From assembly GCA_038828875.1 (NCBI GenBank), contig JAWBMQ010000007.1, positions 1-52,084 of the forward strand: a DNA stretch of 52,084 nt, written 5' to 3'. Below, piece by piece: positions 1-47,524 of this stretch. The stretch is from Candidatus Woesearchaeota archaeon (GTDB lineage: Archaea > Nanobdellota > Nanobdellia > Woesearchaeales > JAWBMQ01). Both the position numbers and the translations under genes were made by a program. Below the pieces are notes generated by a model, which saw only the letters and a list, made by a program, of their open reading frames with translations, was not told the origin of the DNA and made no database searches. Each line of letters starts with the position of its first letter. Position 1 is the first letter of the stretch.

Positions 1-1476
1 TATTTTTTCATTATTTTCTTTCTTTCTATTTTCTAAGAAATCAAAAAGAGTATTGATGGTAGTAACTAAATTTTTGTTGAGCATTTCTTTTTTAGATGAA
101 AAATAAATAATGTAATTATTCTCGATTTCTATAATTCCTTGTTTTTCTTCATTTAGAACTAAAATTTTTGGTGGAACTTTTTTGTTTAAAACTTTATTTT
201 TTACAATTTCTTTTAATTGTGAATCTACATCTTCTAATACAAGGATTAGGTAATTATTTTCATCTAATGCTTTCAAAAATTCAAGATTTTCGTTAAGGTT
301 TAAAGAATAATAAAAGCTTGAAGGCATAATAATAATTCTATTTTCATAATTTATTATTGATTGTTTATTAACAACAGTTTCGTAGTATTTTTCAAAAATA
401 GAATATAAATCTAAATTAATTATATTTCTAAGTTCTATAAAATTTATTTTTTTTGTTGATGTTGAAGTAAATTCTAATTTAAAGTTTAAGTTTAATTTCT
501 GTTGAATATATGAAAATAATTCTTCGTTTTTATAAACGTTTATCTTTTTGTTCAATTCTTTTATTTTTTCATTAAAAACTTTTTCTTCAGAATCTATATT
601 TGTTTGTGTTTTTTCATCGAGAATGCTCATATTTTTTAATAAGTAAATCCATTCTCCAAAAAAAGACCTAATCCAAACTTCTTTATCAGATGGAAGATAT
701 GGCATATTATCGAGGTCTAATAATTTATTTTGAAATATTTTTGAAATTTCAACTATTTCATAAGTCTCATAATTTTTGAATACTTCAAATGGTGTAAAGT
801 TGATGAAAAAGACTAAGAAAGGATCAGACAAATCTAGTGTAAATTTTGTTTTTTCTAAAGATATGTCTTTTTTAGATGTTATTTTTCTTATTTGATTAAA
901 TTTTCGGAACATATCTAATAGAAAGTTTTTATAATTTTCAGACTTACTGTCGAATGTTACTTTTATTGCTTTATTAGCGCAATCAGAAAGCTTTGCTTCA
1001 AAATTATTTTTTATTAAAGAATCTTTTAGAGAGGATATATATAGCGGTATATCTTGCGGATCTAATAAGATTTGGATAATACTTGTTTTTTCAATTGGAA
1101 TTATAGAATAGTAAATAAATATAGTTTCATCATTTAAACTTATCTTTTTATTTATTTGAATATTAAGCACAATATTATTTAAATAATTGAAAAATATTTT
1201 ATATAGCTCATAATACTTAAAAAAATAAAATTTTTTATTTATATTTCCTGTAATTGAAGAATCAATTTCTAAATAAACGTTATAAAAGATTCCCCCAATT
1301 AGAATAGTAGGGTCCTTTATGTTAGTATTATCGAGTATACATTTGTTTAAATCATTAATTAAAACAAGTAATTGTGTTTTTTCAAGAGATTCTTCTATTA
1401 GAATATCTTTTGCAAAAGTAGAAAATAATAAGATGGTAAAAGAAAGACAAATAATTACTCTTTTATTAAATTTCAT
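1..1476 (-). CDS. Large secreted hypothetical protein, partial (runs off left edge; missing from ORF track)
   Basis: Hand translation from ATG at 1476 gives 492 open codons to position 1. It starts MKFNKRVIICLSFTILLFSTFAKD (signal peptide-like) and lies just downstream of 1522..2829 on the same strand. Confidence 0.85.
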   Translation of the reverse strand, partial: MKFNKRVIICLSFTILLFSTFAKDILIEESLEKTQLLVLINDLNKCILDNTNIKDPTILIGGIFYNVYLEIDSSITGNINKKFYFFKYYELYKIFFNYLNNIVLNIQINKKISLNDETIFIYYSIIPIEKTSIIQILLDPQDIPLYISSLKDSLIKNNFEAKLSDCANKAIKVTFDSKSENYKNFLLDMFRKFNQIRKITSKKDISLEKTKFTLDLSDPFLVFFINFTPFEVFKNYETYEIVEISKIFQNKLLDLDNMPYLPSDKEVWIRSFFGEWIYLLKNMSILDEKTQTNIDSEEKVFNEKIKELNKKINVYKNEELFSYIQQKLNLNFKLEFTSTSTKKINFIELRNIINLDLYSIFEKYYETVVNKQSIINYENRIIIMPSSFYYSLNLNENLEFLKALDENNYLILVLEDVDSQLKEIVKNKVLNKKVPPKILVLNEEKQGIIEIENNYIIYFSSKKEMLNKNLVTTINTLFDFLENRKKENNEKI

Positions 1477-1521: not shown

Positions 1522-2829
1522 TTATAATTTTTTTGTTTTATTTACTTGTGTATATGATTTGAATAAATTTTTTATTTCTTTTCTCAAAGGAATTCTTACA
1601 TCAACTCCTTTAGGGATTCCATAAGCATTTTTTATGTGTGGATTTTCCTTTTTTAAGAGTTCAACATTTACTTTATATTTTTTTGAAATTTCGTTCCAAG
1701 ATTTGTAAGAATCATAACGAAGATGCATGATTTCAAAGAATTCATAGTTGATTTCATTCATTTTTTTTAAGAAAATTTCATTCCATGCTATCGCATTATA
1801 AACATAATATTGCCCAATTTTATTAAACCCTGAAAATTTTCTTTTTAAATGCTCAGAATTTGTAAGTTTATATAGGTGAATATTGTAATTTTTTATTATT
1901 GAAGAATTAATAGAATTTGTTGATAAATCTTGCTTATAATTTATTTTAATATATTCTTTAACTAACGCTCTTACTCTTCCACTTCCTTGATTATATGCAA
2001 GCATTGCTAAATCCCATCTTCCAAATTGATTATATAGTAATTTCATGTATCTTATTGCTGCATCTATAGATTTTTCTGGATGAAATCTTTCATCGATTTC
2101 AGAATTTACAATTAATCCTAGCCCTTTAGCAGTGCTTCTTTGAAATTGATAAATTCCTGCATCATCAGTGAGACTATTGTAACTATTTAATTTACCATCA
2201 TTTTCGATTAAGAAAATACCTAATGATACATAAAGAGGAACTTCATATCTTTTAGAAGTAAAATAAATTTCCTCTAGAAATCTTCCTAAAAATTGTAATT
2301 TTTGTTCTACCCATTCTTTATGTTTTGAAATTGAATTTTCTCTTTGCTTTGAAATTTCATAAATTTTGTAAGAATAATAACTATCAACGTTTTCAAGAAA
2401 TGATGAATAATTCTTTCTAAAATCATAGAAATTTGTTGAATATTTCGGATAATTGTTTGATATGTTTTTTTCTAATGATTGTTTATTTTCATAAACGATA
2501 TATTTTACATCAATTTTATTGGAAATCGTTTTTGAATCTAATGAATCAGTATTATTTAAATTCTCAAATTCAGATACAATTTTATTACTTTGTTGTTTAT
2601 CTATTTCATAAATTGATGAAACGTTACTTGGTTCATTTAATTCATAATAGTTAATAATCTGTGGTTGTTCATAGAAAAATTTTTCTTCAACTTTTTTATT
2701 AAAATCTTTAGGAATTGAAAAATAAGTTATTGAAATTGCACCTCCTATCATAATTAAATTATTCAATATTTTTTTGAGCAAATTTTCATCTTTATTGTTA
2801 ATTTTTTTGGTGTGTAAATACGTATTCAT
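1522..2829 (-). CDS. Membrane-anchored lytic transglycosylase (GH23/SLT, MltD-like) with C-terminal LysM
   Basis: N-terminal hydrophobic segment; motifs LIENDG (catalytic Glu), AGIYQF, DERFHPEKSIDAA, WDLAMLAYNQG; LysM-like SWNEISKKYKVNVELLKKENP...IPKGVDVRIP. Confidence 0.9.
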   Translation of the reverse strand: MNTYLHTKKINNKDENLLKKILNNLIMIGGAISITYFSIPKDFNKKVEEKFFYEQPQIINYYELNEPSNVSSIYEIDKQQSNKIVSEFENLNNTDSLDSKTISNKIDVKYIVYENKQSLEKNISNNYPKYSTNFYDFRKNYSSFLENVDSYYSYKIYEISKQRENSISKHKEWVEQKLQFLGRFLEEIYFTSKRYEVPLYVSLGIFLIENDGKLNSYNSLTDDAGIYQFQRSTAKGLGLIVNSEIDERFHPEKSIDAAIRYMKLLYNQFGRWDLAMLAYNQGSGRVRALVKEYIKINYKQDLSTNSINSSIIKNYNIHLYKLTNSEHLKRKFSGFNKIGQYYVYNAIAWNEIFLKKMNEINYEFFEIMHLRYDSYKSWNEISKKYKVNVELLKKENPHIKNAYGIPKGVDVRIPLRKEIKNLFKSYTQVNKTKKL

Positions 2830-2900
2830 TTTTCCACCAATAAGTGAGTTTTTTTATAAAGAATAATTTTAAATAAGTAGTTACTTTTAAAAATCTTATG

Positions 2901-2943
2901 ATTTAGTAATCTAGATTACAAATCGTTCGATTATCGATAGCTA
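2901..2943. promoter_or_regulatory. Palindrome cluster in divergent promoter region (candidate operator)
   Basis: Perfect 14-bp palindrome GTAATCTAGATTAC (2906-2919), then AATCG-TT-CGATT (2921-2932) and TCGAT-T-ATCGA (2927-2937). Confidence 0.4.
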
Positions 2944-3012
2944 AAATTATAAACTAAAAAGTGATTGCAAAAACTTTTATATAATAAAACTATTGTGTTT
3001 TTGGTGAGTAAA

Positions 3013-3243
3013 ATGTTAGTAGGTTTTGATTTAAATCAGATTTTGTTGTTAGTTGTTTTAGCTGCATTGTTGGCTATTATGTATGTTTTAAGAATTTTAG
3101 TTATTATGGAAAGAAGTGTTGCTAATATTGAGCTTCATTTAGAAAAGATGGTTGAAAAGCTGTATGCTGAAGAAATGAAATTAGAAAAAGAAACTAAGAA
3201 AATCGAAAAGAAATTGGATGAAATTGAAGAAGAAGTCGATTAA
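3013..3243 (+). CDS. Small membrane protein with coiled-coil tail
   Basis: GGTGA RBS at 3003-3007 before ATG 3013; one TM helix followed by an acidic/basic helical tail. Confidence 0.8.
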   Translation: MLVGFDLNQILLLVVLAALLAIMYVLRILVIMERSVANIELHLEKMVEKLYAEEMKLEKETKKIEKKLDEIEEEVD

Positions 3244-3271
3244 ACTTTTTTCTTTTTCTTGAATTTTTGCA

Positions 3272-4204
3272 ATGTCATACGAAGAGTTTTTTAAAATTGT
3301 GGAAGATATTAAATCTTTGAAAATTCAAGGAGCACAGAGTATTGCAATTTCAGGTGTAAAAGCGTTAACAATTGCATTTCATGATTCTCTTTCTTTACAA
3401 ATGAATGTAGATGAGATAAAAGAAAAGATTTATGAAATGAAGAAGATTTTGGAAAATTCTAGACCAACTGAACCATTGATGAGAAATATCTTAAATTATA
3501 TCTGGTTTAAGATAAAAGACGATTATGAGCTTTTTTTGTTGAAAAAAGATTTTGAATTAGCAGTACAGTATATTTCTCAACATTTTAAAGAAGTAGATGA
3601 AAAAATTGCAGAATTTGGATCTAATTTAATAAAGAATGGGATGATTGTTTTTACTCACTGTCACAGTAGTAATGTTGTAAAATTGTTAAAAAAAGCACAT
3701 GATAAAGGAATCAAATTTGAAGTTTACAATACAGAAACAAGACCTAAGTTTCAAGGTAGAATTACTGCTAAAGAATTAGCAGATTATGGAATTAAAGTTA
3801 CTCATTTTGTAGATTCTGCAGCAAGAATTGCTTTGAAAAATGCAGATCTTTTTTTATTTGGAGCAGATGCAATAACTGCTCAGGGAAAAGTTGTTAATAA
3901 AATTGGAACAGAGTTATTTGCAGAAATTGCACAAATTTTCGGAGTTCAAGTTTATTGTGTTACGGATTCTTGGAAATTTGATCCTATGACTTATTTTAAG
4001 CCAGAGGAAATTGAAATCAGAAGTCCTGATGAAGTATGGCCAAATGCACCGAATAATGTAGAAATAATAAATTATGCTTTTGAAATGGTTGATAAAGAAT
4101 TGATTGATGGTATAGTTACTGAATTAGGAATTTTGAATATAGATGATTTACCATATGAATTAAGAGAACATTATAATTGGCTTTTCAAAGTTTATGAAAA
4201 ATAA
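3272..4204 (+). CDS. Ribose-1,5-bisphosphate isomerase (eIF-2B alpha/beta/delta family)
   Basis: IQGA, SRPTEP, THCHSS (catalytic Cys), ETRP, GADAI (catalytic Asp), NKIGT. Confidence 0.88.
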   Translation: MSYEEFFKIVEDIKSLKIQGAQSIAISGVKALTIAFHDSLSLQMNVDEIKEKIYEMKKILENSRPTEPLMRNILNYIWFKIKDDYELFLLKKDFELAVQYISQHFKEVDEKIAEFGSNLIKNGMIVFTHCHSSNVVKLLKKAHDKGIKFEVYNTETRPKFQGRITAKELADYGIKVTHFVDSAARIALKNADLFLFGADAITAQGKVVNKIGTELFAEIAQIFGVQVYCVTDSWKFDPMTYFKPEEIEIRSPDEVWPNAPNNVEIINYAFEMVDKELIDGIVTELGILNIDDLPYELREHYNWLFKVYEK

Positions 4205-4215
4205 ACGGTGATTGA

Positions 4216-5037
4216 ATGTTAGTAAGTTCAAAAGAGTTGTTGAATTCTGCTAAAGCTAAGAAGATTGCGATTGGAGCATTTAATATTAATAATTATGAGT
4301 TTGCTAAAGGAATTATTTTAGCAGCTCAAGAGATGAAACAAGATGTGATCGTTCAAACAACACAGCATGCTATTGATTATGCAAGTTTTAAAGTTTTATC
4401 TTCAATTGTCAAAAGTTTAGCAGAAGATTATGATGTTAAAATTGTTCTTCATTTGGATCATGGTAAAGATATAAAATATGTTATAAATGCTATAAAATAT
4501 GGATGGACCAGTGTGATGATTGATGGTTCTGATTTACCATATGAACAAAATGTTGCTTTAACTAAGGCAGTTGTAAAAATTGCTCATCAAGCAGAAATCC
4601 CTGTTGAAGGAGAGCTAGGACCGATACCTAAAGCTACAGAAAAGATTACTAAATTTACGGATCCAGATCAAGTTGAAGATTTTGTAAATTCTACAGATGT
4701 TGATTTTCTTGCAGTAGCTATTGGAAATGCACATGGAATTTATTCTGATCCCAATCCTAAGATAAATTTAGACGTTCTCAAAAAAATAAATAAAAAAGTT
4801 AACATTCCTTTAGTTATGCATGGTGGTTCTGGGTTGCCAGATGAACAAATAAAGCAAGCTATTCAAAATGGAATTTCTAAGATCAATTTTGATACTGAAT
4901 TAAGAATAGCTTTTAGCAATGCATTAGAAAATTACTTCAAAAAAGAGCCGGGAAGTTATAATGTTAGAACATTTTTAACTGAAAGTATTAATTCAGTAAA
5001 AGAAAAAGTAAAAGAAAAGATGAAACTTCTTCAATAG
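4216..5037 (+). CDS. fba: Class II fructose-bisphosphate (ketose-bisphosphate) aldolase
   Basis: GAFN, HLDHG, SVMIDGS, VEGELG, GNAHG, VMHGGSG, KIN motifs. Confidence 0.9.
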   Translation: MLVSSKELLNSAKAKKIAIGAFNINNYEFAKGIILAAQEMKQDVIVQTTQHAIDYASFKVLSSIVKSLAEDYDVKIVLHLDHGKDIKYVINAIKYGWTSVMIDGSDLPYEQNVALTKAVVKIAHQAEIPVEGELGPIPKATEKITKFTDPDQVEDFVNSTDVDFLAVAIGNAHGIYSDPNPKINLDVLKKINKKVNIPLVMHGGSGLPDEQIKQAIQNGISKINFDTELRIAFSNALENYFKKEPGSYNVRTFLTESINSVKEKVKEKMKLLQ

Positions 5038-5072
5038 TAAATTTTTTAAATTAAAGAAAAAATTATTAATTT

Positions 5073-6152
5073 ATGGCAGATGTTCTTCAAAAAATAAAAG
5101 ATTTAGCAATGCAGGTTTATTCTAAGATAAATAAACTTGAACCTCCTGAATTAGAAGTTCCCCAAAGAAATTTGCAAAATGTGTATTATGATGAAAATTT
5201 AGGTTATTTTGAAATGAAAACTTTAACAAAGAAAAGAAAATTGTCAGTGAATACAGTGAAAACTTTTGCTCAAACTTTGAAGATGATTGAGCTATCAAAA
5301 ATTCTAGTAGAGACTGATGATATTGCAACTAAAAGAGAAGCATATTATGTTTCAAAAAATTGGGGTGAAGCAAGATTTAAAGAGCAGCCAGAATCTGATG
5401 CAATAATGGACGATATCGAAGCAATGTTTGGAGTTAATCGTGAGCAATTAGGATTTATTCCTGAAGAGAGAGGTGGAGATGTTGCAGGAGAACTGATTGT
5501 TATAGATAAAGATGCAGAAGGAAAAAAATTAGAAATTGATTGTACTAAATTTGGATCAGGTGCTTATAGTATTCCAGTTTCAGTAGAACATTTAAAGTTT
5601 CAGACAGATGCTGAATACATAATAGCTATAGAAACGCACGGTATGTTTCAGCGTTTGGCAAAACATGGATTTTGGAAGAAATCAAATTCAATACTAATTA
5701 ATATGGGTGGTGTTCCGACACGAGCAACAAGACGCTTTATTAGAAGACTTTCTGATGAATACAAAATTCCGGTAGTAGTTTTTACAGATGGTGATCCTTA
5801 CGGATGGTTAAATATATATAGAACTTTAAAAGTAGGTTCTGGAAATTCAGCACATATAAATAAGTTTTTTTCTGTTCCTAATGCAAAGTTTATAGGAATT
5901 ACTGCAAGAGATATTAAAGATTATGCTTTACCAACACATCCTTTAAAGGACGTTGATATCAAACGCATTGATGATGGTATAAAGAACGATCCTTTTGTTA
6001 AGCATTATCAGCAATGGCAACAAGAATTAACATTGCTGAAAACTATGAAAAAAAGAGCAGAACAACAAGCATTAGCAACTCATGGTTTAAATTACGTAAT
6101 TGATACTTATCTACCTGAAAAGCTTGCAAATCCTGAGCGTTGGTTACCATAA
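5073..6152 (+). CDS. top6A: DNA topoisomerase VI subunit A
   Basis: TKREAYY catalytic Tyr; TOPRIM motifs IAIET, GVPTRATRRF, DGDPYG; AEQQAL. Confidence 0.96.
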   Translation: MADVLQKIKDLAMQVYSKINKLEPPELEVPQRNLQNVYYDENLGYFEMKTLTKKRKLSVNTVKTFAQTLKMIELSKILVETDDIATKREAYYVSKNWGEARFKEQPESDAIMDDIEAMFGVNREQLGFIPEERGGDVAGELIVIDKDAEGKKLEIDCTKFGSGAYSIPVSVEHLKFQTDAEYIIAIETHGMFQRLAKHGFWKKSNSILINMGGVPTRATRRFIRRLSDEYKIPVVVFTDGDPYGWLNIYRTLKVGSGNSAHINKFFSVPNAKFIGITARDIKDYALPTHPLKDVDIKRIDDGIKNDPFVKHYQQWQQELTLLKTMKKRAEQQALATHGLNYVIDTYLPEKLANPERWLP

Positions 6153-6186
6153 CTTTTAAATATTTTTTCTTTCTTTTAAGTGAAAA

Positions 6187-7293
6187 ATGGAAAATTATGA
6201 TAATTTTGAAAAACAAATTAAAAGAAGGAGATTTTTTAGAACTTTAATTTCTTCAGTAGTAATTGGTGCTTCAGCTATAGGAGGTTATTTTTTGGTAGAT
6301 TATTTTGTAACAAAGAATAAAAATAAGGTGAATCTTTTAGTAAATCCTGTGGTTATAGAAAAAAAGATAGATGAAGAAAATAAAGATAATGAAGTTAAAA
6401 TAGAGGACAACTTAGAAGATATTGTTTATGAAATTCAATTAGATGAAAAAGAATATTCTTTTAAAGATAGATATTATGAAATCTTTAAAGATTATAATAA
6501 TCAAGAATTGAAAGAAATTTACCAAAATGTAGAACAAATTAAAAAATTAGGAATTAGTAATAAGAAATTAGATCTATTAGTTCAATATCTTCCAGAGATA
6601 AGTGATGCATCTAAAAAATACGGAGTACCGATTTATGTTTTGGGAGGAATTATGCTTTATGTGGGTGATGGTACCTTAAAAGCATATGATAAAAAAACAG
6701 ATTGTGCAGGGATTTATCAGATTCAAAGAAATACTGCAAGAGAGCTGAAATTATGGATGAATGAATCTGTTGATTATAGATTCTTTCCCGAGTTTGCAAT
6801 AAATGCAGCAGCAAAGCATTTGAAATGGTTAAAAGATGTTTTTTCGAGATGGGATTTAGCAATCTTAGCTTATAATCAAGGAGAAAAAAGAGTGAAGCAG
6901 TTAATGGAAGAAATAATTGCTATGAATTATCATGATGTCAGATCAATTAATGAGCTGAGATATTATGATTTGAAGAATAATGAACAATTGTTGAAAATGT
7001 ATGAAGGTTTTGAAAAATATGGAAAAAATTATTTAGAATCAATTCTTGCTTCTTGGGAGCTTTTTTTGGAAAATAAAGAGAAGATAAAAGCAATAAAAAC
7101 AAAGTATTATTTTTATGAGACTACAAGATCAGATTATACTTTAGAAGAATTGAGCGTTATCTTTCAAATTCCTTTGGAGGAATTAATTGCTGAAAATCCA
7201 CAGATAAGAGATATCAATAACATTCCTACAGGAGCACTTATAAGGATTCCTAAAGAGAAATATAAAATGGATCCTAATTATTATATAAAATAA
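6187..7293 (+). CDS. Lytic transglycosylase-like + LysM protein, catalytic Glu replaced by Val
   Basis: Paralogue of 1522..2829 (AGIYQI, WDLAILAYNQG, ENPQIRDINNIPTGALIRIP); LYVGDG aligns without gaps to LIENDG; N-terminal TM segment. Confidence 0.87.
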   Translation: MENYDNFEKQIKRRRFFRTLISSVVIGASAIGGYFLVDYFVTKNKNKVNLLVNPVVIEKKIDEENKDNEVKIEDNLEDIVYEIQLDEKEYSFKDRYYEIFKDYNNQELKEIYQNVEQIKKLGISNKKLDLLVQYLPEISDASKKYGVPIYVLGGIMLYVGDGTLKAYDKKTDCAGIYQIQRNTARELKLWMNESVDYRFFPEFAINAAAKHLKWLKDVFSRWDLAILAYNQGEKRVKQLMEEIIAMNYHDVRSINELRYYDLKNNEQLLKMYEGFEKYGKNYLESILASWELFLENKEKIKAIKTKYYFYETTRSDYTLEELSVIFQIPLEELIAENPQIRDINNIPTGALIRIPKEKYKMDPNYYIK

Positions 7294-7326
7294 TGATAAA
7301 ATTTATATATTTGTGGAAAAAAACTA

Positions 7327-9528
7327 ATGAGGATGAAAAAAAGAATAATTTTTTTATTCTTATGGTTAATCTTCTTATCAAATATTGTATATTCTTCTAA
7401 AGAAGTAAGTGAGTTAGATTTAGGTTCATCAAATTCTTTTCAAATAAAAGAATCAATAATTGAAGAGAAGGTTTTATCTTATAATAAGTATGTTGTTGAT
7501 TGTTTATTACAGAATGTAAAAACTGGTTTTAAAATTTTTGTTGAAGCTAAAGCTCAAGACGAAGTATTTTTCTCTAAAGATTGGAACGTAGAGTGTAATT
7601 ATATTTGGTGTGATAAAAATAAGGATGATGATCTTTATTTTAAAGTAACTTATCAATTTGATGATAAATATGCAAATACGTTGGCAGCAATATATATTTT
7701 TTTAAGAGGTAATGAAAACTTACAGCTTGATTTAAAGCTTGATTCTTGTAAGCATTTAGATTCCAATGTAGAAGAAAGCAAATTTATTTCTGATTTAAAT
7801 TACTATGAAAAAAAGATTTTTTTAATGTTAAATCATATGAAGTTTTATTTAGGAGATAAAATTAAGGTTCCTATTTGTAAAGAATCGACAATTTATACAC
7901 AACAAAATCTTGAAAAAACAGTTAGTAAGATTAACAATGATTTTGGAAAGAAATATAATCTTCCAATCATTCAATACATTTTGGTTGATGATTTATCTTC
8001 TAATGATGTTTGCTATAGATCAATATATGAATTTTTAGAGGAGCAAGAGAAAAAGGCATTAGAAAAAATCTCTATATTGTTAGATAATAGAGAATCATTA
8101 TTCATTTTAAATAAACTTTTTTATTCTAAAGATTTCACATTATCACAATTGAATGCTGCTTTGAACAATAATAATCGATTTTTGTATGTTTTTGAAGATG
8201 ATAAGAAATTATATGATCTTTTAAAGCAAGTTTTTTCTAAAGCAAAGTTTATTAGACCTTCAGTTATTTTATATGACAATTTGATTAATAAACTTCGTTA
8301 TATAATTTTACAAAAAGAAAATAAGATAATCATAGTTCCGATGATTATTTTAGCATATAACAAGAATACTTTTTCTAATCAAATACAATATTCCTACGAA
8401 TACTTACAAAAAGTTCAAAATAGAAATTATAAAATTACTGACATTTTTAATAAAAAAGGTTATTTTGAATTAGCACTAAGAACTGATCAGGAATTAATTA
8501 TTACTTCTAAATTCTTTAATAATGAAGATCTTTTGAAAAAATATCTAGCTAATTATTATTCTCCCATCGAAATTTTCAAACTTACCGATACAAAAATATA
8601 TGTTTATGTAAAATCTTTAGATACCGTTCATGATGTGTTTAGTTGGGGATTTACTAGGGGTGATGCACCTAAATCACCCATAGAAGTTTTAAAAAATTTA
8701 AAAAATATTGAAAACGAAATAAAAGCAGCAAAATTTTCATTTAATAAAGTAATTTATAATTATCAAACATATTATGAAAATAAAGAGAAAAAATCTAAAA
8801 AAGTCATTTCAAAAATTATACCTACTAATTTAGTTCAAGCATGTAAAGATAATTTTTTATTAAAATTAAGGTCATATAATTTATTAGTCAATGATTGCAA
8901 AATTGATATCTGCAAAATTGATTATAAAAATTTTGATATATTTAATTATATTTACCGCGTTTCTGAATGTTATGCTATAGATCCTTTATTAGTTATAAGT
9001 CTTATTGCTAGAGAAAGTGATGGAATTAATAATTTTAAAGAAAGAGGAGCAGTAGGATTAGGTCAATTTACAACAACTACTGGAGAAGAAAATAATTTAT
9101 TAACGTTCAATAATAAAGGAGAATATCTTGATTTTAGGCATCATCCATTGTTAAATATCGGTGCGTTAGTTATATATCTTCGAGATAATTTAGATGTTTC
9201 TTTAAAAGATTCAAAAAGAGGAATTGAAGATGCACTTTGGTATTATAATTTTGGTCAAGGAAATATTATAAAGTATTTTTCTAACTTAAAGTCTTCAAAA
9301 ATTTCTGAAAAAATAAACAGTATTCTAGAAAATGCTCCTGTAGATGATACTCTTGGAAATAAAAAGCTAGAAGTTGCACAATATGCACCTACTATTATTT
9401 CATATTATTTATTTTATAATTATGTAGGAATAAGTAAAAATGATGGTAAGAGTTTTTCAAAAGATATAAATTCTTTATTAACTAAATACAATATTGCAAT
9501 TTATTTTCCACAAGGTGAAATTAAATGA
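7327..9528 (+). CDS. Large secreted protein with C-terminal SLT lytic transglycosylase domain
   Basis: Signal peptide; YAIDPLLVISLIARES, GAVGLGQF, DFRHHPLLNI, ALWYYNFG. Confidence 0.85.
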   Translation: MRMKKRIIFLFLWLIFLSNIVYSSKEVSELDLGSSNSFQIKESIIEEKVLSYNKYVVDCLLQNVKTGFKIFVEAKAQDEVFFSKDWNVECNYIWCDKNKDDDLYFKVTYQFDDKYANTLAAIYIFLRGNENLQLDLKLDSCKHLDSNVEESKFISDLNYYEKKIFLMLNHMKFYLGDKIKVPICKESTIYTQQNLEKTVSKINNDFGKKYNLPIIQYILVDDLSSNDVCYRSIYEFLEEQEKKALEKISILLDNRESLFILNKLFYSKDFTLSQLNAALNNNNRFLYVFEDDKKLYDLLKQVFSKAKFIRPSVILYDNLINKLRYIILQKENKIIIVPMIILAYNKNTFSNQIQYSYEYLQKVQNRNYKITDIFNKKGYFELALRTDQELIITSKFFNNEDLLKKYLANYYSPIEIFKLTDTKIYVYVKSLDTVHDVFSWGFTRGDAPKSPIEVLKNLKNIENEIKAAKFSFNKVIYNYQTYYENKEKKSKKVISKIIPTNLVQACKDNFLLKLRSYNLLVNDCKIDICKIDYKNFDIFNYIYRVSECYAIDPLLVISLIARESDGINNFKERGAVGLGQFTTTTGEENNLLTFNNKGEYLDFRHHPLLNIGALVIYLRDNLDVSLKDSKRGIEDALWYYNFGQGNIIKYFSNLKSSKISEKINSILENAPVDDTLGNKKLEVAQYAPTIISYYLFYNYVGISKNDGKSFSKDINSLLTKYNIAIYFPQGEIK

Positions 9529-10016
9529 AGCTTTCTAAGTTTTTAATAATTTTAATTTTATTTTTTTCAGTTTATTCAGAGAAAGTAATTTTGTTTAATC
9601 TAGAGAAATGTATTGTAGAAGATGTTGTTGAAAATGTAGTTACTGAAACTAGCGATGTAATACCTCATTATTATGTTAAGTATCAAAATGAAAATTTAAC
9701 TTACGTAATTGGTAAAAATTCTTTAGATTACATCTATCTTCCATTGGTTGATAAGTTTAAAGTTGAAGTTTATGATGATGAGAACGTTTATTGTAATCAA
9801 TCATTCAATGTTCTAATAAAATATGAAAAGATTAGCGAAGATGTGTTAAAAAGATATGTGGACGCGATAGAAAAATATGAAGAAAATGAAAAAATAAATA
9901 AAATGGAAGAATATTCTTTAGCTACGATAATTCCTATTTTTTTGATATTTTTAGTAATTTTTATTGTACTACTCTTCTATAGAAAAATGTACAGGAAATT
10001 AAAAAAGAAAAAGTAA
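9525..10016 (+). CDS. Secreted protein with C-terminal membrane anchor
   Basis: Signal peptide, C-terminal TM and basic tail; overlaps the upstream stop codon. Confidence 0.75.
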   Translation: MKLSKFLIILILFFSVYSEKVILFNLEKCIVEDVVENVVTETSDVIPHYYVKYQNENLTYVIGKNSLDYIYLPLVDKFKVEVYDDENVYCNQSFNVLIKYEKISEDVLKRYVDAIEKYEENEKINKMEEYSLATIIPIFLIFLVIFIVLLFYRKMYRKLKKKK

Positions 10017-10021
10017 TTTTT

Positions 10022-10267
10022 TTATTCTTTGAATTGTTCTAACATACTAACTAAATTCCATAGATTTGTTCTAGTAAATGGTTCTATATTTGGATCTTCG
10101 TCTAATTCTTCTAAAATACTAATACATTTATCAGCTTTGATTGCTTTGTCTTTTCCTTTTTCGTTCAATATTTTTTTGATTTCAGCTAATTTATCTTTAA
10201 CATTTTTTGGAGTAGAATAATCTGTTTCTATTAATTCTACAAATTCAATTATTGCTTTTGCATCCAT
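10022..10267 (-). CDS. UPF0147 family protein
   Basis: DYSTPKNV...ISILEELDEDPNIEPFTRTNLWNLVSMLE; GGTGA RBS favours ATG 10267. Confidence 0.9.
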   Translation of the reverse strand: MDAKAIIEFVELIETDYSTPKNVKDKLAEIKKILNEKGKDKAIKADKCISILEELDEDPNIEPFTRTNLWNLVSMLEQFKE

Positions 10268-10282
10268 GAGAATCACCTCTTT

Positions 10283-10534
10283 TCATTCTTTTTTTTCAGG
10301 AGCATGATTTAATTTTTTCTTTAAAGAGTTTAATTTGAATTCTAACAATTCTTTTTTTTCATTTAGTTTGTTTTCAACATCTTCCTTTTTCTTTTTTATC
10401 ATTAAGTTTCCAACTAATTCGTAAACTTCATCTTTATTTTTTATTTCTTCTAAAACAGAATCAATTTCATTGATTTGCAGTTCTAAATTTTGGATTTGAA
10501 ATACTAATTTTTCCAATTCTTCGTTGTATTCCAT
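10283..10534 (-). CDS. pfdB: Prefoldin beta subunit (short)
   Basis: Coiled coil - VYELVGNLMI hairpin - coiled coil; conserved archaeal gene order after rpo12/pcc1. Confidence 0.85.
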   Translation of the reverse strand: MEYNEELEKLVFQIQNLELQINEIDSVLEEIKNKDEVYELVGNLMIKKKKEDVENKLNEKKELLEFKLNSLKKKLNHAPEKKE

Positions 10535-10536
10535 TT

Positions 10537-10746
10537 TTAATTTATCTTTTCAGTAGTTTCAAAAATTTTCATTGCTTTAATGAATCCATCTAATGTAGCA
10601 CGAAGCGAAGTTGCATCTTTTGCTAAAATGTAAATTTTTTTATCTTTTATTTTACTTTTAGATCTTTCTCCACTATAACATGCAATTTTTAACACATTTT
10701 CGAGTCGTGAATCTTCAAAAGCAATGATTGCTTTATATTTAAACAT
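10537..10746 (-). CDS. pcc1: KEOPS complex subunit Pcc1
   Basis: ERSKSKI...AKDATSLRATLD motif; position between rpo12 and prefoldin. Confidence 0.85.
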   Translation of the reverse strand: MFKYKAIIAFEDSRLENVLKIACYSGERSKSKIKDKKIYILAKDATSLRATLDGFIKAMKIFETTEKIN

Positions 10747-10758
10747 TTTTAAATTTTT

Positions 10759-10893
10759 TTATTCTACTTTTATTTTTGTGGGATGAACTCTTGATTTAAC
10801 AAAGATTCTGCTTCCACAGTAGGGGCATTGTACTTTTCTTTTTAAATAATTTCCATCAACTTCTTTTTTACATTTAAAACAAACATAAGCCAT
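10759..10893 (-). CDS. rpo12: RNA polymerase subunit P (Rpo12), 44 aa; below ORF-track cutoff
   Basis: Hand translation MAYVCFKCKKEVDGNYLKRKVQCPYCGSRIFVKSRVHPTKIKVE; Zn ribbon; GGTGA RBS; follows eL43. Confidence 0.95.
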   Translation of the reverse strand: MAYVCFKCKKEVDGNYLKRKVQCPYCGSRIFVKSRVHPTKIKVE

Positions 10894-10913
10894 TATTTCA
10901 CCTTGTTTTAAAA

Positions 10914-11141
10914 TTAAACTTTCATTTCATCTACAGTGTAAGCATAACCTGTAAATTTAGAATTGCATTTTCTGCATTGCCAAATTCCTACTGCAACTCT
11001 TTTAACTGCTATTTTCCCGCAATAAGGACATCTGTAGGTTTTTCTACTCATCTTTTCAACAGCTTCAGCTCTTTTTCTTACTTTTAAACCATATCTTGCT
11101 CCAAATCGTTTAGTTGGATTTCCTTTAATTTCATTAGCCAT
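10914..11141 (-). CDS. rpl37ae: 50S ribosomal protein L37ae (eL43)
   Basis: RFGARYG, CPYC, VKRVAVGIWQCRKC; GGTGAT RBS favours ATG 11141. Confidence 0.97.
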   Translation of the reverse strand: MANEIKGNPTKRFGARYGLKVRKRAEAVEKMSRKTYRCPYCGKIAVKRVAVGIWQCRKCNSKFTGYAYTVDEMKV

Positions 11142-11174
11142 ATTGATCACCATGTATTTTTTTATTGAAAAATA

Positions 11175-11248
11175 TGGGGCTGCCCGGATTCGAACCGGGG
11201 TCTCAGGCTCCCAAAGCCCGAAGGATAACCAGGCTACCCTACAGCCCC
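11175..11248 (-). tRNA. tRNA-Pro(TGG), no intron, CCA not encoded
   Basis: GGGGCTG/CAGCCCC acceptor stem, anticodon arm CGGGC-TTTGGGA-GCCTG, T loop GTTCGAATC. Confidence 0.97.
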
Positions 11249-11379
11249 TATTTTTAAATTAAAACCTATAAAATATAATTATATTAAAGGAATTCAAGGT
11301 TAATTTATAAATTTTTACATTTTTATAATTTTTATGTTTGAAAAAAATTTTTAAACAATAACAAACAAATAAATTGAAT

Positions 11380-12189
11380 ATGTATTTTAACAATGTTTTT
11401 GTTTTTAGCTATTTGAATAAGCAAGATTTTTCTAATGTTAAAATCCTTTTTAAAGAGGATCTCGATGAATTTATTGTATTTCTTGATAGTATTGATAAAA
11501 AAATAGAGCAGTTGAATGCATTTTCCCTTTCAAGTGCTAATGATAGTTTAGCAATAGGTCAATCAATAAATGAATTTTACAAAGAATACAATCAAATTAT
11601 TTATAGGTTAAGTAAATTTTTTAAAATACTTCGAACTTTTACTGAACAAGAAATAAAGTATTTGAATTTGCTTTTTAAGGATGAATTTCTTTCAGTTAAT
11701 GCTTTTGAATATTCTAATTATTTGAAAAAGGAGAGAGAACAGAAAAATTTGTTTATTAAAAAATTGATTTCTTTTGAAAAAGAAAAGGATTTTCTTTTTC
11801 TCATTTCAATGCACGATAATATTGTCTTTTCAATCTTTCAAGCTCCTACAGAAGATGTAGATGAAAAAATTGTAGAATCTTTGTCTAACAACGGTCAATA
11901 TAAAAGAAAGCTTTTTTATTACTACCTTGTTGGCTTTAGAGTTTGGAATAAGATTTGCAAGAAAAAATTTGAAATGGAAATTGTTGAAAGATTGAGGAGA
12001 AAGAGGGAATTGTATTTTAAAGGATTGTTCAAAGTTTTAGAAATGAAAAAATATGATCAAAGCCATGTGAAGAAGATTTACTCTTCTATTTATTCTATTT
12101 CAACTCATTTAAGAAAAGAAGCTAAAAATCTTAAATATAAGGATATTTTTTCTACTGGTTTGTTACCTTTAAGTGAAATATTTTCTTGA
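11380..12189 (+). CDS. Hypothetical protein
   Basis: Long ORF; no recognised motif; start uncertain (11374 or 11380). Confidence 0.7.
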   Translation: MYFNNVFVFSYLNKQDFSNVKILFKEDLDEFIVFLDSIDKKIEQLNAFSLSSANDSLAIGQSINEFYKEYNQIIYRLSKFFKILRTFTEQEIKYLNLLFKDEFLSVNAFEYSNYLKKEREQKNLFIKKLISFEKEKDFLFLISMHDNIVFSIFQAPTEDVDEKIVESLSNNGQYKRKLFYYYLVGFRVWNKICKKKFEMEIVERLRRKRELYFKGLFKVLEMKKYDQSHVKKIYSSIYSISTHLRKEAKNLKYKDIFSTGLLPLSEIFS

Positions 12190-12311: not shown

Positions 12312-12857
12312 ATGGGAATAAGTAATGAAGAGCTTTCAGCTTATATAAAGAAAAGAAGAGAGCTTTATGGATTTTCTAATCCTTTGCAATCAACAAATAA
12401 AAAAAATGTTGAAAAGACTTCTTTTTTAGATAAAGTAAACTTTTTTAAAAACTTAGTTGGTAAAAAAGAAAAAAATGTGGTGAAATTAACTCCAGAAATA
12501 AAAGAGGCGGATGAAATGATAGATGAAATAGATACAAATAAAAAAATAGAAGAGGAGAATGTAAAATATGAAAAAACAGGTCCTTTGAAAATAGGATTTA
12601 TCGAAAAAATAAAGCAAGTATTTATTAAAAAACAAGATAACGTTTATGTTGAGGAAACTATAGAAGATGATGTTGTTGAATTAGATTATGAAGAAATTAG
12701 GCAAGCGTTTAAGATAGCAAATTCTTTAATAAAAAAATTACCTCCTGCAGTATTGAAAGCATTTAAAGAATCAGATAGTTATCCCATTTATGTTAATACT
12801 ATGAGAAAATTAAAATTAGTTAAGGAAAAAACAACAGAAGATGAACAAGAACAATAA
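12312..12857 (+). CDS. Hypothetical protein
   Basis: GGTGA RBS before ATG 12312; charged protein. Confidence 0.75.
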   Translation: MGISNEELSAYIKKRRELYGFSNPLQSTNKKNVEKTSFLDKVNFFKNLVGKKEKNVVKLTPEIKEADEMIDEIDTNKKIEEENVKYEKTGPLKIGFIEKIKQVFIKKQDNVYVEETIEDDVVELDYEEIRQAFKIANSLIKKLPPAVLKAFKESDSYPIYVNTMRKLKLVKEKTTEDEQEQ

Positions 12858-26879: not shown

Positions 26880-26893
26880 TTGGAGGGAATATT

Positions 26894-32245: not shown

Positions 32246-32292
32246 AGGTCTTAAATGTTGTTCAAATTAAAGAATTAATGAAACAATAACAG

Positions 32293-32490
32293 AAAATTTA
32301 TAAATTTCAATTTTCTTTACTTTCTGATGATAACAATGTCCTGGAGAAAAAATATAACATTAGGGTTATTGATTCCGTTTGCATTTTTTGGATTAGAAGG
32401 TAAGGTAGAGAAAAATTATCAAGTAGAAACAAAGGATGAATTAAAGATAGAAAAAACAATAAGTGGTTTAGAAAGTAAAGTATTTGCATT
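32293..32490 (+). repeat. Direct repeat block 1, copy 1 (promoter + leader of gene A); partner 35652..35849
   Basis: Shared AAAATTTATAAATTTCAAT TATA region; 32342-32490 reads identical to 35701-35849 (offset 3359). Confidence 0.95.
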
Positions 32491-33964: not shown

Positions 33965-33975
33965 AAGGTGAAAAA

Positions 33976-35523: not shown

Positions 35524-35685
35524 ACTTTTTGAATTGAGTTATCAAATTAATTAGTATCAAGTTTACAATTTTTAGATTTAGGAGATAATGAATTAAAAAT
35601 TATAGATGAAAATTAATTTTTTATAATTTAAAGCTATTTAAATTTTATAAAAAAATTTATAAATTTCAATAATATTCACTTTCTG

Positions 35686-47270: not shown

Positions 47271-47524
47271 GATTTTTTTGTTGGTTTTTTCTTTTTAAAT
47301 TGTTTTTGATTTTTTAGATAATATTATGTTTATAGTTTAGTATAGTTTTTTCTATTTTAGTTGGTATCTTTTGGATATCTTTAAAACTTACTCCCTTGTA
47401 AGTTTATCAAAAGATTTAAATAAGTTTTTAATTTTCTATGTAAAACTCGTAAGGATAAGATTCAAAATTAAGGACTAATTAATTTTGTTTCTTATTCTTT
47501 TGAGTAAAAAAAGAGGTGGAAAAA

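What the first reader, a model, noticed from the sequence alone, without database searches (positions are those of the whole stretch)
1522..9528. Peptidoglycan-attack toolkit in an archaeon: three exported lytic transglycosylases, two with LysM
Seen: three GH23/SLT-domain genes within 8 kb, each with a signal peptide or N-terminal TM, interleaved with archaeal genes such as top6A and of similar AT-rich composition, so contamination is unlikely. Known: GH23 enzymes cleave beta-1,4 MurNAc-GlcNAc and LysM binds GlcNAc polymers; archaea lack peptidoglycan, and pseudomurein has a different linkage. Inference: this probable DPANN cell binds and opens bacterial walls, implying a bacterial host, prey or necromass source. 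Archaeal peptidoglycan hydrolases are not unprecedented; the expanded, tethered, specialised set is what stands out.
Basis: partly seen in the sequence, partly recalled or inferred. Interest (0 to 1): 0.85.

Follow-up and report, generated by a model that had tools for sequence, protein, structure and literature searches.

The report
Wall-cutting enzyme genes in Woesearchaeote
A tiny hot-spring archaeon that makes no bacterial-type cell wall carries several surface-exposed relatives of bacterial wall-cutting enzymes, one of them catalytically dead, which fits the already published idea that such archaea latch onto bacteria.

Summary
Three SLT/GH23-domain genes lie at 1522-2829(-), 6187-7293(+) and 7327-9528(+), between archaeal genes (Top6A, eL43, prefoldin), with the same codon composition and no assembly gap. 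W1 and W2 are N-terminally anchored, MltD-like proteins (SLT plus one C-terminal LysM-type fold; predicted structures best match P. aeruginosa MltD). Pfam LysM is below threshold in W1 and not reported in W2. W2 has Val in place of the catalytic Glu, so it is probably a binder, not an enzyme. W3 is a secreted 733-aa protein with a divergent SLT domain that keeps the Glu.

Genome-wide (0.89 Mb) there are 6 SLT and 3 M23-peptidase genes. I found no murein synthesis genes and no muropeptide catabolism genes. SLT occurs in 28 of 40 sampled relatives of the order, and SLT-M23 fusions recur.

The reading "DPANN archaea bind or cut bacterial walls" is already in print (Castelle 2021; Vigneron 2022, and others) and remains untested.

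Features for which I saw no description in the papers I read:
- the dead paralogue W2;
- the anchored SLT-LysM clade shared with Nanohaloarchaeota;
- the W2-W3-W4 indel relative to a same-genus genome;
- a species-specific small anchored partner family (W4).

Verdict: a new member of a known kind, of moderate interest.

The parts
1522..2829 (-). W1: 435-aa membrane-anchored MltD-like protein. N-terminal helix, about 85-residue low-confidence stalk, SLT domain, C-terminal LysM-type fold.
   Evidence: Pfam SLT E 3.4e-19. AF2 model mean pLDDT 82.6, with the 10-residue block means at 90 or above over about residues 131-430. Best PDB fold match is P. aeruginosa MltD 8rhf/8rhi/8rhe, E 5e-9 to 2e-8, 292-316 aligned columns.
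1954..2256 (-). W1 SLT catalytic domain (residues 192-292). The catalytic Glu209 codon is at 2203-2205.
   Evidence: In the profile of the 7 G000 SLT-type domains, the consensus Glu lines up with the Glu of E. coli MltC, and with the Gln of the chain 4cfo_A. Glu is present in this column in 35 of 37 rows of alignment A2.
1567..1749 (-). W1 C-terminal LysM-type beta-alpha-alpha-beta module (residues about 361-421).
   Evidence: DSSP elements E361-371, H378-385, H389-394, E410-421. Pfam LysM 14.2 bits, below the 20.9 cut-off. NCBIfam SafA LysM-type domain at residues 380-414, E 3.7e-4.
6187..7293 (+). W2: 368-aa paralogue of W1 (40% identity over 247 aa). It has the same architecture, but the catalytic Glu is replaced by Val159. 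Predicted glycan binder or pseudo-enzyme.
   Evidence: Pfam SLT E 1.8e-14. blastp against W1. AF2 model pLDDT 86.7. Best PDB match is MltD 8rhf, E 1.5e-8. LysM-type hit at residues 318-355, E 4e-5.
6661..6663 (+). GTG codon (Val159) in the column where 35 of 37 aligned relatives have the catalytic Glu.
   Evidence: The stored record P0006 (213 aa) shows the same Val, and its displayed segments equal W2. A 654-nt contig from an independent study (X3) covers 6645-7298 with no listed difference at this codon; 14 differences were not shown.
7327..9528 (+). W3: 733-aa secreted protein. Sec-type signal peptide, about 500-aa N-terminal region of unknown fold, C-terminal divergent SLT domain (8956-9309) with Glu563-Ser (codon 9013-9015).
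   Evidence: Pfam SLT 24.7 bits against cut-off 21.3. hhalign against the W1 family: probability 96%, E 4e-9, covering the ES, G-L-G-Q and Y-N-x-G motifs. No homologue at E<=1e-5 in 150 other genomes of the order.
9525..10016 (+). W4: 163-aa protein with a signal peptide, an ectodomain with two conserved Cys, and a C-terminal TM anchor with a basic tail. Its start overlaps the W3 stop by 4 nt (ATGA).
   Evidence: There are six paralogues in G000, each next to a gene for a large secreted protein or an M23/SLT protein. No credible match in 150 other genomes of the order.
1..1476 (-). W0: exported protein of at least 492 aa, cut by the contig end, downstream of W1 on the same strand. Function unknown.
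   Evidence: Signal-peptide-like N-terminus. No Pfam, NCBIfam or PHROGs family.
3272..6152 (+). Housekeeping genes between W1 and W2: IF-2B family (3272-4204), class II fructose-bisphosphate aldolase (4216-5037), Top6A (5073-6152).
   Evidence: Pfam E 8.9e-61, 1.1e-94 and 2.1e-61. They are 74%, 75% and 90% identical to the same-genus genome G001, in the same order.

Best explanation
The window carries part of a surface-displayed, murein-directed toolkit of a Woesearchaeota-type DPANN archaeon.

- W1 is anchored in the archaeal membrane by an N-terminal helix. It holds an MltD-like head (SLT catalytic domain plus one LysM-type module) on a flexible stalk. The LysM module docks on GlcNAc-containing glycan strands, and Glu209 cleaves the MurNAc-beta-1,4-GlcNAc bond of a neighbouring bacterium's sacculus.
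- W2 is a diverged duplicate of W1 that lost the catalytic Glu (Val159) but keeps the fold and the groove motifs. It most likely binds glycan without cutting, as an adhesin or a holder.
- W3 is secreted and carries a divergent but Glu-bearing SLT domain. It is made together with W4, a small membrane-anchored protein that may tether or escort it (a guess).

Together with three M23 endopeptidase genes elsewhere in the genome, these proteins would open a local hole in a bacterial wall so the archaeon can attach or gain access. The purpose would not be to feed on muropeptides.

Shown here: domain identities, catalytic residues, predicted folds, export signals, gene order, distribution among relatives, and the lack of detected murein synthesis and muropeptide catabolism genes. 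Inferred: the substrate, contact dependence, and a bacterial partner.
For: Domains and folds:
- SLT domains in all three genes.
- W1 and W2 models best match MltD with LysM domains.
- The Glu column is anchored to MltC, MltE and Slt70.

Genome-wide arsenal:
- 6 SLT-type matches, 5 over the cut-off.
- 6 M23 matches in 3 ORFs. The 497-aa M23 protein keeps the H-x-x-x-D and H-x-H motifs when aligned to solved M23 peptidases.
- One 1758-aa ORF fuses SLT with 4 M23 repeats.
- SLT and M23 lie in the same frame and ORF in 5 of 41 genomes: G000, G017, G030, G038, G040.
- These 8 ORFs sum to 17,247 nt, 1.9% of the genome (coordinates).

What the genome lacks:
- No Mur_ligase_M, PBP transpeptidase or FtsW/RodA match.
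- No AnmK, S66 LD-carboxypeptidase, Glucosamine_iso (NagB-type) or GH3 match.

Evolution:
- The positional W1 orthologue in the same-genus genome is only 33% identical, while neighbours are 64-90%. That rate suits an interaction protein.
- Between strains, the W2 SLT core shows 6 synonymous changes and 1 Val-to-Ile change across 7 changed codons, so it is under constraint.

Published readings agree (passages read).
Against: - No experiment exists, and no host is known.
- All cultured DPANN hosts cited in the passages I read are archaea.
- The closest named relatives of W1 outside the Woesearchaeota are in Nanohaloarchaeota MAGs. The paper describing those MAGs infers Halobacteria, which lack murein, as their most probable host.
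- MltD and MltE crystals bind chito-oligosaccharides (entry titles). The PLoS Biology paper notes that LysM can bind chitin. The fold therefore does not fix the substrate.
- LysM is below Pfam's threshold in W1 and not reported in W2.
- W1 has Glu-Asn rather than the usual Glu-Ser.
- No Amidase_3, NlpC/P60 or PG_binding_1 match in G000.
- The W3-W4 pairing rests on gene order only.
Confidence: 0.58

Rival explanations
1. The proteins act on a GlcNAc-containing glycan that is not bacterial murein. Candidates are the envelope or glycans of an archaeal host, pseudomurein, chitin, or the cell's own surface glycans. The SLT/LysM heads would serve archaeon-archaeon attachment.
For: The W1-type clade of 18 rows (SH-aLRT 95) joins Woesearchaeota rows with 5 loci from Nanohaloarchaeota MAGs. 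The paper on those MAGs infers Halobacteria as their likely host. The solved relatives MltD and MltE bind chito-oligosaccharides (entry titles). From recall: GH23 also holds goose-type lysozymes and a chitinase.
Against: M23 endopeptidase domains with intact metal motifs, some fused to SLT in one polypeptide, point to a peptide-cross-linked glycan. From recall: the pseudomurein glycan is beta-1,3-linked and its uronic acid has no free C6-OH for a 1,6-anhydro product. No Mur-ligase-type gene for a sacculus of its own was found.
Confidence: 0.2
2. Murein is the substrate, but the purpose is different: secreted or surface antibacterial weapons for competition, or scavenging of dead bacterial walls (necromass) as a nutrient source, with no host relationship.
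For: Archaeal peptidoglycan hydrolases that kill bacteria are documented (PMC12352652: title, abstract and passages read). PMC11537232 proposes peptidoglycan of dead bacteria as an amino-acid source for Pacearchaeota. W3 and the other large proteins have cleavable signal peptides, so they could be released.
Against: No AnmK, LD-carboxypeptidase S66, Glucosamine_iso (NagB-type) or GH3 NagZ-type match in a genome rated 100% complete. Use of muropeptide sugars is therefore not supported. W1 and W2 are anchored, not released. A 0.89-Mb genome with few pathways fits dependence on a partner.
Confidence: 0.15
3. The cell has a murein-like or pseudomurein-like wall of its own, and these enzymes are housekeeping remodelling enzymes, as MltD is in bacteria.
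For: The domain architecture equals that of bacterial housekeeping MltD.
Against: No Mur_ligase_M, transpeptidase or FtsW/RodA match in the genome, although controls ring in 10-13 of 14 reference genomes.
Confidence: 0.04
4. Assembly or binning artefact: bacterial SLT genes were stitched into an archaeal contig.
For: MAG contigs can merge strains. Logan contigs are fragmented over part of the locus.
Against: GC3 matches the neighbours, and there are no Ns in the window. W1 and its flanks are syntenic in the same-genus genome. A 6777-nt contig (X1) covers 7217-12000 exactly, crossing W3-W4 into UPF0147, prefoldin and eL43. A 543-nt contig of an independent study (X3) bridges the Top6A/W2 junction. 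The nearest relatives of W1 are archaeal.
Confidence: 0.02

Closest known systems
Bacterial MltD (family 1D membrane-bound lytic murein transglycosylase; P. aeruginosa structures 8rhe/8rhf/8rhi)
   Same: W1 and W2 have the same domain order, SLT catalytic domain followed by a LysM-type module. MltD is the best fold match for both models. The NCBIfam MltD equivalog is their top named hit, though far below its cut-off. W1 keeps the catalytic Glu and the G-x-x-Q and A-Y-N-x-G motifs.
   Different: Anchoring is by an N-terminal transmembrane helix rather than a lipoprotein anchor (the latter recalled). There is one LysM-type module, whereas the 8rhf entry title names two. Sequence identity is only 16-19%. 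The host organism has no detected murein synthesis genes. W2 lacks the catalytic Glu.
[quoted passage not shown] 2021, PMC8204110; GH23 genes of Vigneron et al. 2022, PMC9723730)
   Same: Same lineage, same domain, predicted extracellular, same proposed role. W3 (733 aa) and the 1758-, 959- and 580-aa SLT proteins elsewhere in this genome fit the description. SLT ORFs of 700-1700 aa occur in sampled relatives.
   Different: I could not check membership in fam00969 because supplements are closed. The small anchored SLT-LysM type (W1/W2), the dead paralogue and the W4 partner genes are not mentioned in the passages I read.
Phage internal virion or tail lysins with an SLT domain (T7 gp16 type) and the type VI effector Tse3
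   Same: An SLT domain placed at one end of a large delivery protein to pierce murein locally. gp16 is the best PDB sequence hit of W1. PHROGs hits are to such proteins. Tse3 appears among the profile hits.
   Different: Similarity is limited to the roughly 100-aa SLT core: 18-23% query coverage across the 12 listed of 773 matching phage records. No phage genes adjoin.
Predatory or episymbiotic bacteria using lytic transglycosylases (Vampirococcus lugosii, Bdellovibrio MltA-like enzyme)
   Same: Small or predatory cells that deploy wall-cutting enzymes against a neighbour. This is the analogy drawn by Vigneron 2022 and seen in the listing of PMC10127604.
   Different: Those organisms are bacteria that also need such enzymes for their own wall. 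Here the producer appears to have no murein.

Membership tests
SLT / GH23 family-1 lytic transglycosylase (Pfam PF01464) | HMM match above the curated cut-off (21.3 bits) | tested here: met
   W1 69 bits, W2 53.7 bits, W3 24.7 bits. For W3, hhalign against the W1 family also gives 96% probability.
SLT / GH23 family-1 lytic transglycosylase (Pfam PF01464) | Catalytic Glu at the end of the first helix (E-S motif) | tested here: inconclusive
   Mixed result across the three proteins. Met in W1 (Glu209-Asn) and W3 (Glu563-Ser). NOT met in W2 (Val159-Gly). The column is anchored to MltC, MltE and Slt70. W2 should not be filed as an active member.
SLT / GH23 family-1 lytic transglycosylase (Pfam PF01464) | Lysozyme-like all-alpha fold with the substrate groove motifs (G-L-M-Q type; A-Y-N-x-G) | tested here: met
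   W1 and W2 models (pLDDT 82.6 and 86.7) match MltD, MltE, MltC, MltF and Slt. Motifs are GIYQ and AYNQG in W1/W2, and GLGQ and YYNFG in W3. W3 was not folded.
SLT / GH23 family-1 lytic transglycosylase (Pfam PF01464) | Cleavage of MurNAc-beta-1,4-GlcNAc with a 1,6-anhydroMurNAc product | not testable with these tools
   Needs enzyme assays on sacculi.
LysM domain (Pfam PF01476) | HMM match above the curated cut-off (20.9 bits) | tested here: not met
   W1 scores 14.2 bits (E 0.044). W2 has no hit at E<=0.1. The whole genome has no LysM match over the cut-off.
LysM domain (Pfam PF01476) | Beta-alpha-alpha-beta fold of about 45-60 residues following the catalytic domain | tested here: met
   DSSP of the models: W1 E361-371/H378-385/H389-394/E410-421; W2 E303-311/H319-326/H330-336/E351-360, all in blocks with mean pLDDT of 90 or above. 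SafA LysM-type NCBIfam hits below cut-off. The segment aligns with the LysM motif of clade members, and 14 of 37 rows carry Pfam LysM.
MltD-type architecture | SLT domain followed by LysM module(s), tethered to a membrane | tested here: met
   Domain order and fold match. The N-terminal hydrophobic helix is shared by all 9 unnamed clade members printed. The tether is a transmembrane helix, not a lipobox (read from the sequence).
Castelle 2021 fam00969 (large extracellular murein-like LT proteins of Woese-/Pacearchaeota) | Membership in that protein cluster | not testable with these tools
Only the description in the text was read.
Peptidase M23 (companion genes outside the window) | H-x-x-x-D and H-x-H zinc motifs | tested here: met
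   Checked only for the 497-aa protein at C2:16147-17640, aligned to solved M23 peptidases. The four repeats in the 1758-aa protein looked degenerate by eye and were not formally checked.

The most novel reading that the evidence does not exclude
This hot-spring Woesearchaeote is a cross-domain episymbiont or micro-predator of bacteria that uses a division of labour on its surface:
- a catalytically dead MltD-like adhesin (W2) that grips the wall;
- an active anchored cutter (W1);
- giant secreted SLT/M23 proteins, each escorted or tethered by its own small anchored W4-family partner.

The W2-W3-W4 cassette would be a lineage-specific, fast-turnover module that tracks host walls.
Probability: 0.25. 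Interest if true: 0.75.

Novelty: new member of a known kind. Interest (0 to 1): 0.36.

Why it matters
Whether any DPANN archaea live on bacteria rather than on other archaea is an open question. So far it rests on gene lists of exactly this kind.

This genome does not answer it, but it offers compact, testable reagents:
- W1 is a 435-aa enzyme with a confidently modelled head.
- W2 is a natural catalytic-null paralogue that can serve as a binding probe and as a built-in control.
- An M23 partner set lies elsewhere in the genome.

The locus also shows that the anchored SLT-LysM type is shared between two DPANN lineages. One of them is thought to live with haloarchaea. That warns against reading 'SLT' automatically as 'bacterial host'.

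Tried and rejected
- W3-W4 binding: complex prediction gave no answer (score 0.00). This is neither for nor against binding.
- W3 N-terminal region: no Pfam, NCBIfam or PHROGs family. The ESM Atlas gave no usable look-alike, and its own model is poor. An iterated HMM search of the 837 G000 ORFs of at least 100 aa found only W3 itself. I therefore treat the weak blastp similarity to the 1758-aa protein (E 3.6e-5 in an 8-sequence database) as unreliable.
- W4: the Atlas shows only sub-0.5 TM look-alikes (carboxypeptidase-regulatory-like beta-sandwich) from a poor model. This is a lead only.
- Tat export of W2 (its R-R-R-F-F motif): rejected, because no TatC match was found.
- Phage origin: rejected. 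Phage hits cover only the SLT core.
- Word-index homologue searches were insensitive on these AT-rich proteins: 3 and 5 hits.
- Names for the unnamed representatives could not be obtained. The bacterial or archaeal origin of most rows in the tree (148 of 170) is therefore unknown, and no donor can be named.
- Tree rows left out: P0001 (identical to W1), P0006 (W2 fragment), P0155, and domain hits spanning fewer than 70 HMM positions (176 domain hits, 170 kept). The SLT domains of the 1758-, 580- and 959-aa proteins and locus L008 did not pass.
- Expression: no RNA holder was listed among the 6 runs.
- Cover: in run X2 the laid contigs leave 5201-8400 almost uncovered, and a 4566-nt contig stops matching at 5025. 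This might mean strain variation of the island, but a hole in contigs proves nothing. The listed joints have sides of only 20-23 letters.
- Other wall-hydrolase or wall-binding families (NlpC/P60, Amidase_3, PG_binding_1): not found in G000 or G001.
- Supplements of Castelle 2021 and Vigneron 2022 (family membership, CAZy tables) could not be seen. They may already list relatives of these genes.

Full report
WHAT IS THERE

The window is contig C7:1-52084 of an 890,776-bp genome in 10 contigs, about 26.5% G+C, rated 100% complete and 0.52% contaminated. Between 1 and 10,016 lie, in order:
- W0 (1-1476, minus strand): an exported protein of at least 492 aa, cut by the contig end, with no family.
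- W1 (1522-2829, minus strand): 435 aa.
- A 92-aa membrane protein (2965-3243).
- An IF-2B-family gene (3272-4204).
- A class II fructose-bisphosphate aldolase (4216-5037).
- Top6A (5073-6152).
- W2 (6187-7293): 368 aa.
- W3 (7327-9528): 733 aa.
- W4 (9525-10016): 163 aa.

Downstream come UPF0147, prefoldin and ribosomal protein eL43. Further on are ThrRS, an Lhr-type helicase, ribonucleotide reductase and GatE.

Pfam finds the SLT domain in W1 (E 3.4e-19), W2 (E 1.8e-14) and W3 (E 1.8e-5; 24.7 bits against a cut-off of 21.3). For W3, a profile comparison with the W1 family gives 96% probability and E 4e-9 over 147 columns, covering all the motifs.

IS IT REAL AND ARCHAEAL?

- Third-position G+C of W1, W2 and W3 (0.14-0.18) matches the neighbours (0.14-0.22).
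- The only Ns of the contig lie beyond the window.
- A same-genus genome (G001) keeps the order W1-like / small membrane protein / IF-2B / aldolase / Top6A / UPF0147 / prefoldin / a 69-aa ORF / eL43. The matching public record is titled Candidatus Woesearchaeota archaeon.
- Six public runs hold the stretch or part of it. All are labelled hot springs metagenome, and they come from three studies.
- One 6777-nt contig (run X1, possibly the source sample) covers 7217-12000 without a difference. It joins W3 and W4 to the archaeal genes downstream.
- A 543-nt contig from an independent study (X3) bridges the Top6A/W2 junction (5911-6455) with 19 differences and 4 gaps, so it comes from a related strain.

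A bacterial-archaeal chimera is therefore very unlikely.

THE THREE PROTEINS

W1 and W2 are paralogues, 40% identical over 247 aa that span the SLT domain and the C-terminus.

The AlphaFold models are confident for the folded heads:
- W1: mean pLDDT 82.6, with the 10-residue block means at 90 or above over about residues 131-430.
- W2: mean pLDDT 86.7.
- Each model has an N-terminal helix, a low-confidence stalk (W1 51-119, W2 42-78), helical SLT domains and a terminal beta-alpha-alpha-beta unit.

For both models the best solved match is the lytic transglycosylase MltD of P. aeruginosa, in entries that include its LysM domains:
- W1: E 5e-9, 292-316 aligned columns, TM by target 0.60-0.72.
- W2: E 1.5e-8, 253-267 aligned columns.
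- MltE, MltC, MltF and Slt follow in both lists.

The LysM claim is thus right in substance but not by Pfam's own threshold. W1 scores 14.2 bits against 20.9, and W2 has nothing at E<=0.1. The genome has no LysM match over the cut-off. Three results support a LysM-type module:
- A SafA LysM-type NCBIfam hit, below its cut-off: W1 380-414 at E 3.7e-4, W2 318-355 at E 4e-5.
- Pfam LysM in 14 of 37 aligned relatives.
- Column-wise alignment of the W1/W2 tails with the canonical LysM motif of clade members.

W3 differs from W1 and W2. It has a Sec-type signal peptide, roughly 500 residues with no detectable relatives, and then a divergent SLT domain.

CATALYTIC RESIDUES

A profile of the seven SLT-type domains of this genome hits MltC, MltE, Tse3, T7 gp16 and Slt70. 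Its consensus Glu lines up with the Glu of E. coli MltC, and with a Gln in the otherwise identical chain 4cfo_A. I take that chain to be an inactive mutant (an inference; the entry title does not say so).

In that column:
- W1 has Glu209 and W3 has Glu563.
- The domains of the 1758-, 580- and 959-aa (second domain) proteins have Glu.
- W2 has Val159, codon GTG at 6661-6663.
- The first SLT-like stretch of the 959-aa protein also lacks Glu.

In the 37-row family alignment, 35 rows have Glu. The two exceptions are W2 and a 213-aa stored fragment whose displayed segments equal W2. The independent strain in run X3 covers the codon with no listed difference; 14 differences were not shown.

Across the differences that were listed between that strain and the window, the W2 SLT core (codons 163-210) has 6 synonymous changes and one Val-to-Ile change. 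The cytoplasmic N-terminus (codons 2-17) has 8 non-synonymous changes among 11 changed codons. W2 therefore looks like a maintained protein that binds but does not cut, not a decaying gene. This is a small sample.

BEYOND THE WINDOW

The genome holds 6 SLT-type matches, 5 of them over the cut-off. Besides W1-W3 they lie in:
- a 1758-aa secreted protein that also carries four M23 repeats;
- a 580-aa protein;
- a 959-aa protein with two SLT-like stretches, whose best match of 17.4 bits is below the cut-off.

M23 peptidase domains occur in three ORFs. The 497-aa M23 protein, which lies 500 bases upstream of the 580-aa SLT gene with a 163-aa ORF between them, keeps the H-x-x-x-D and H-x-H motifs in alignments to solved M23 endopeptidases. 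Together the eight ORFs make up 17,247 nt, or 1.9% of the genome (coordinates).

I found no match for any of these families:
- murein synthesis: Mur_ligase_M, PBP transpeptidase, FtsW/RodA;
- muropeptide use: AnmK, the S66 LD-carboxypeptidase, Glucosamine_iso, GH3;
- other wall hydrolases or binders: NlpC/P60, Amidase_3, PG_binding_1.

The same searches ring in 4 to 13 of the 14 control genomes. The cell thus appears to make no murein or pseudomurein of its own and cannot obviously use muropeptides. That favours wall breaching over wall remodelling or feeding.

RELATIVES

In a sample of 40 other genomes of the same order (one of the same genus, the other 39 each of a different family):
- 28 have an SLT match, with 1-4 matches each. 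G000 has the most, at 6.
- 21 have an M23 match.
- 17 of the 41 genomes (G000 included) have both, 12 have SLT only, 5 have M23 only, and 7 have neither.
- SLT and M23 lie in the same reading frame of one ORF in G000, G017, G030, G038 and G040 (coordinates).

A glycan cutter fused to a peptide cutter is what one expects for a peptide-cross-linked glycan, so I weight murein as the substrate.

An HMMER scan of 1.84 billion representatives with W1 gave 9297 hits at E<=0.001 but only 5 at E<=1e-30.

A tree of 170 SLT cores (119 columns, quick IQ-TREE, many forks unresolved) shows the following:
- An 18-row clade (SH-aLRT 95) holds W1, W2, the Woesearchaeota relatives, five loci from Nanohaloarchaeota MAGs (Ca. 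Nanoanaerosalina and kin) and one short contig binned as Methanosarcinales.
- All nine unnamed members printed begin with a basic stretch and a hydrophobic helix, like W1.
- W2 is sister to W1 plus its 66%-identical relative. Its end branch is 0.81 against 0.073 for W1.

The paper that describes the Nanoanaerosalina MAGs does not contain the words transglycosylase, peptidoglycan, murein or LysM. It infers Halobacteria as the most probable, loosely associated host. This is the main caution against equating SLT with a bacterial host.

TURNOVER

- The positional orthologue of W1 in G001 is only 33% identical, while the flanking genes are 64-90% identical.
- G001 lacks W2, W3 and W4 altogether. 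Its Top6A is followed directly by UPF0147.
- W3 has no match at E<=1e-5 in 150 other genomes of the order.
- W4 has six paralogues in G000. In the 150 other genomes there are only three weak hits, each interrupted by stops.

Each W4 paralogue lies on the same strand, overlapping or no more than about 70 nt from a gene for a large secreted protein:
- W3, with a 4-nt ATGA overlap;
- the 1758-aa SLT-M23 protein;
- the 959-aa SLT protein;
- a 423-aa M23 protein;
- large Pfam-less secreted proteins on contig C6: one of at least 2154 aa beside one paralogue, and two of 1350 and 1536 aa flanking the other.

This recurring pairing is my own observation and is unexplained. A tether or escort role is a guess, and the complex prediction gave no answer.

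WHAT IS KNOWN

The core idea is published.
- Castelle et al. [quoted passage not shown] They suggest these may bind and degrade bacterial walls, so that some of these archaea might be episymbionts of bacteria. They cite Rinke 2013 and Castelle 2015 for earlier cases.
- Vigneron et al. 2022 (PMC9723730; passages read) propose 'vampiristic' Woesearchaeota on the basis of GH23 genes and pore-forming toxins.
- PMC10936187 and PMC11537232 repeat the inference (passages read).
- PMC12352652 shows that other archaea make peptidoglycan hydrolases that kill bacteria, and cites the Woesearchaeota case (passages read).

A search for papers holding both LysM and DPANN found 5. Of these I read only passages of PMC12352652, and they do not describe an anchored SLT-LysM family in DPANN. 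The other four I saw only as listings. A 2026 preprint on 208 complete Nanobdellota genomes contains none of the words transglycosylase, peptidoglycan, murein, M23 or lysozyme. I could not see any supplements.

VERDICT

What I did not see described in the papers I read:
- One of the three proteins is a catalytic-null paralogue under constraint.
- W1/W2 belong to a small anchored MltD-like clade shared with Nanohaloarchaeota.
- W2-W3-W4 form a lineage-specific insertion relative to a same-genus genome.
- The set extends genome-wide to SLT-M23 fusions and a private family of small anchored partner genes.

I rate it a new member of a known kind, with interest 0.36.

Noticed in passing
G000 contig C2:15803-19882 (loci L020, L031): Four consecutive same-strand ORFs (115, 497, 163 and 579 aa) start with similar short basic N-termini followed by a long hydrophobic helix. 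By eye these resemble archaeal class III (pilin-type) signal peptides. Two of the ORFs are the intact-motif M23 peptidase and an SLT protein. The genome has an A24 prepilin peptidase at C4:111400-111798. No pilin HMM matched, so pilin-borne wall hydrolases are only an idea.
   Followed up: partly
window 9525-10016; G000 C1:145445-145972, C1:172531-173052, C5:68820-69335, C6:6450-6974, C6:20130-20624: W4 family: six paralogues of about 165-175 aa with a signal peptide, two conserved Cys and a C-terminal anchor. Each adjoins a large secreted protein gene. The family was found only in this genome among the 151 genomes of the order searched. The C1:172531 copy has no ATG/GTG/TTG start for its conserved N-terminal part.
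   Followed up: partly
L026 (contig of 4814 nt binned as an uncultured Methanosarcinales archaeon): It carries a W1-type anchored SLT-LysM gene that groups inside the Nanohaloarchaeota-like subclade of the tree. This could be a mis-binned DPANN contig or a transfer to a methanogen.
   Followed up: no
L024 and L029 (one 17,679-nt contig of a Ca. Nanoanaerosalina MAG): Two W1-type SLT genes lie within a few kb of each other, echoing the W1/W2 pair here. The W1-type clade proteins with the same lineage's acidic make-up (P0007-P0011, P0030) keep the catalytic Glu in the family alignment.
   Followed up: partly
window 12841-14871, 24912-38810, 47516-50365: Seven large ORFs (676, 655, 1789, 545, 515, 524/517 and 949 aa) have no Pfam family at the thresholds used. 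A run of five of them lies back to back on the plus strand. They may be further lineage-specific surface proteins.
   Followed up: no
window 5201-8400: In run X2 the laid contigs cover the flanks at a depth of about 50 but barely cover this stretch, and one 4566-nt contig stops matching at 5025. This may reflect strain-level replacement of the Top6A-W2-W3 region in the population, or it may be only contig fragmentation.
   Followed up: no
G000 C5:69340-72195 (locus L021): A 951-aa secreted protein has two SLT-like stretches. The first (similar to the W3 domain, 29% identity) has Asp-Gln where the Glu-Ser motif should be. This would be a second likely catalytic-null SLT module in the genome.
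   Followed up: partly
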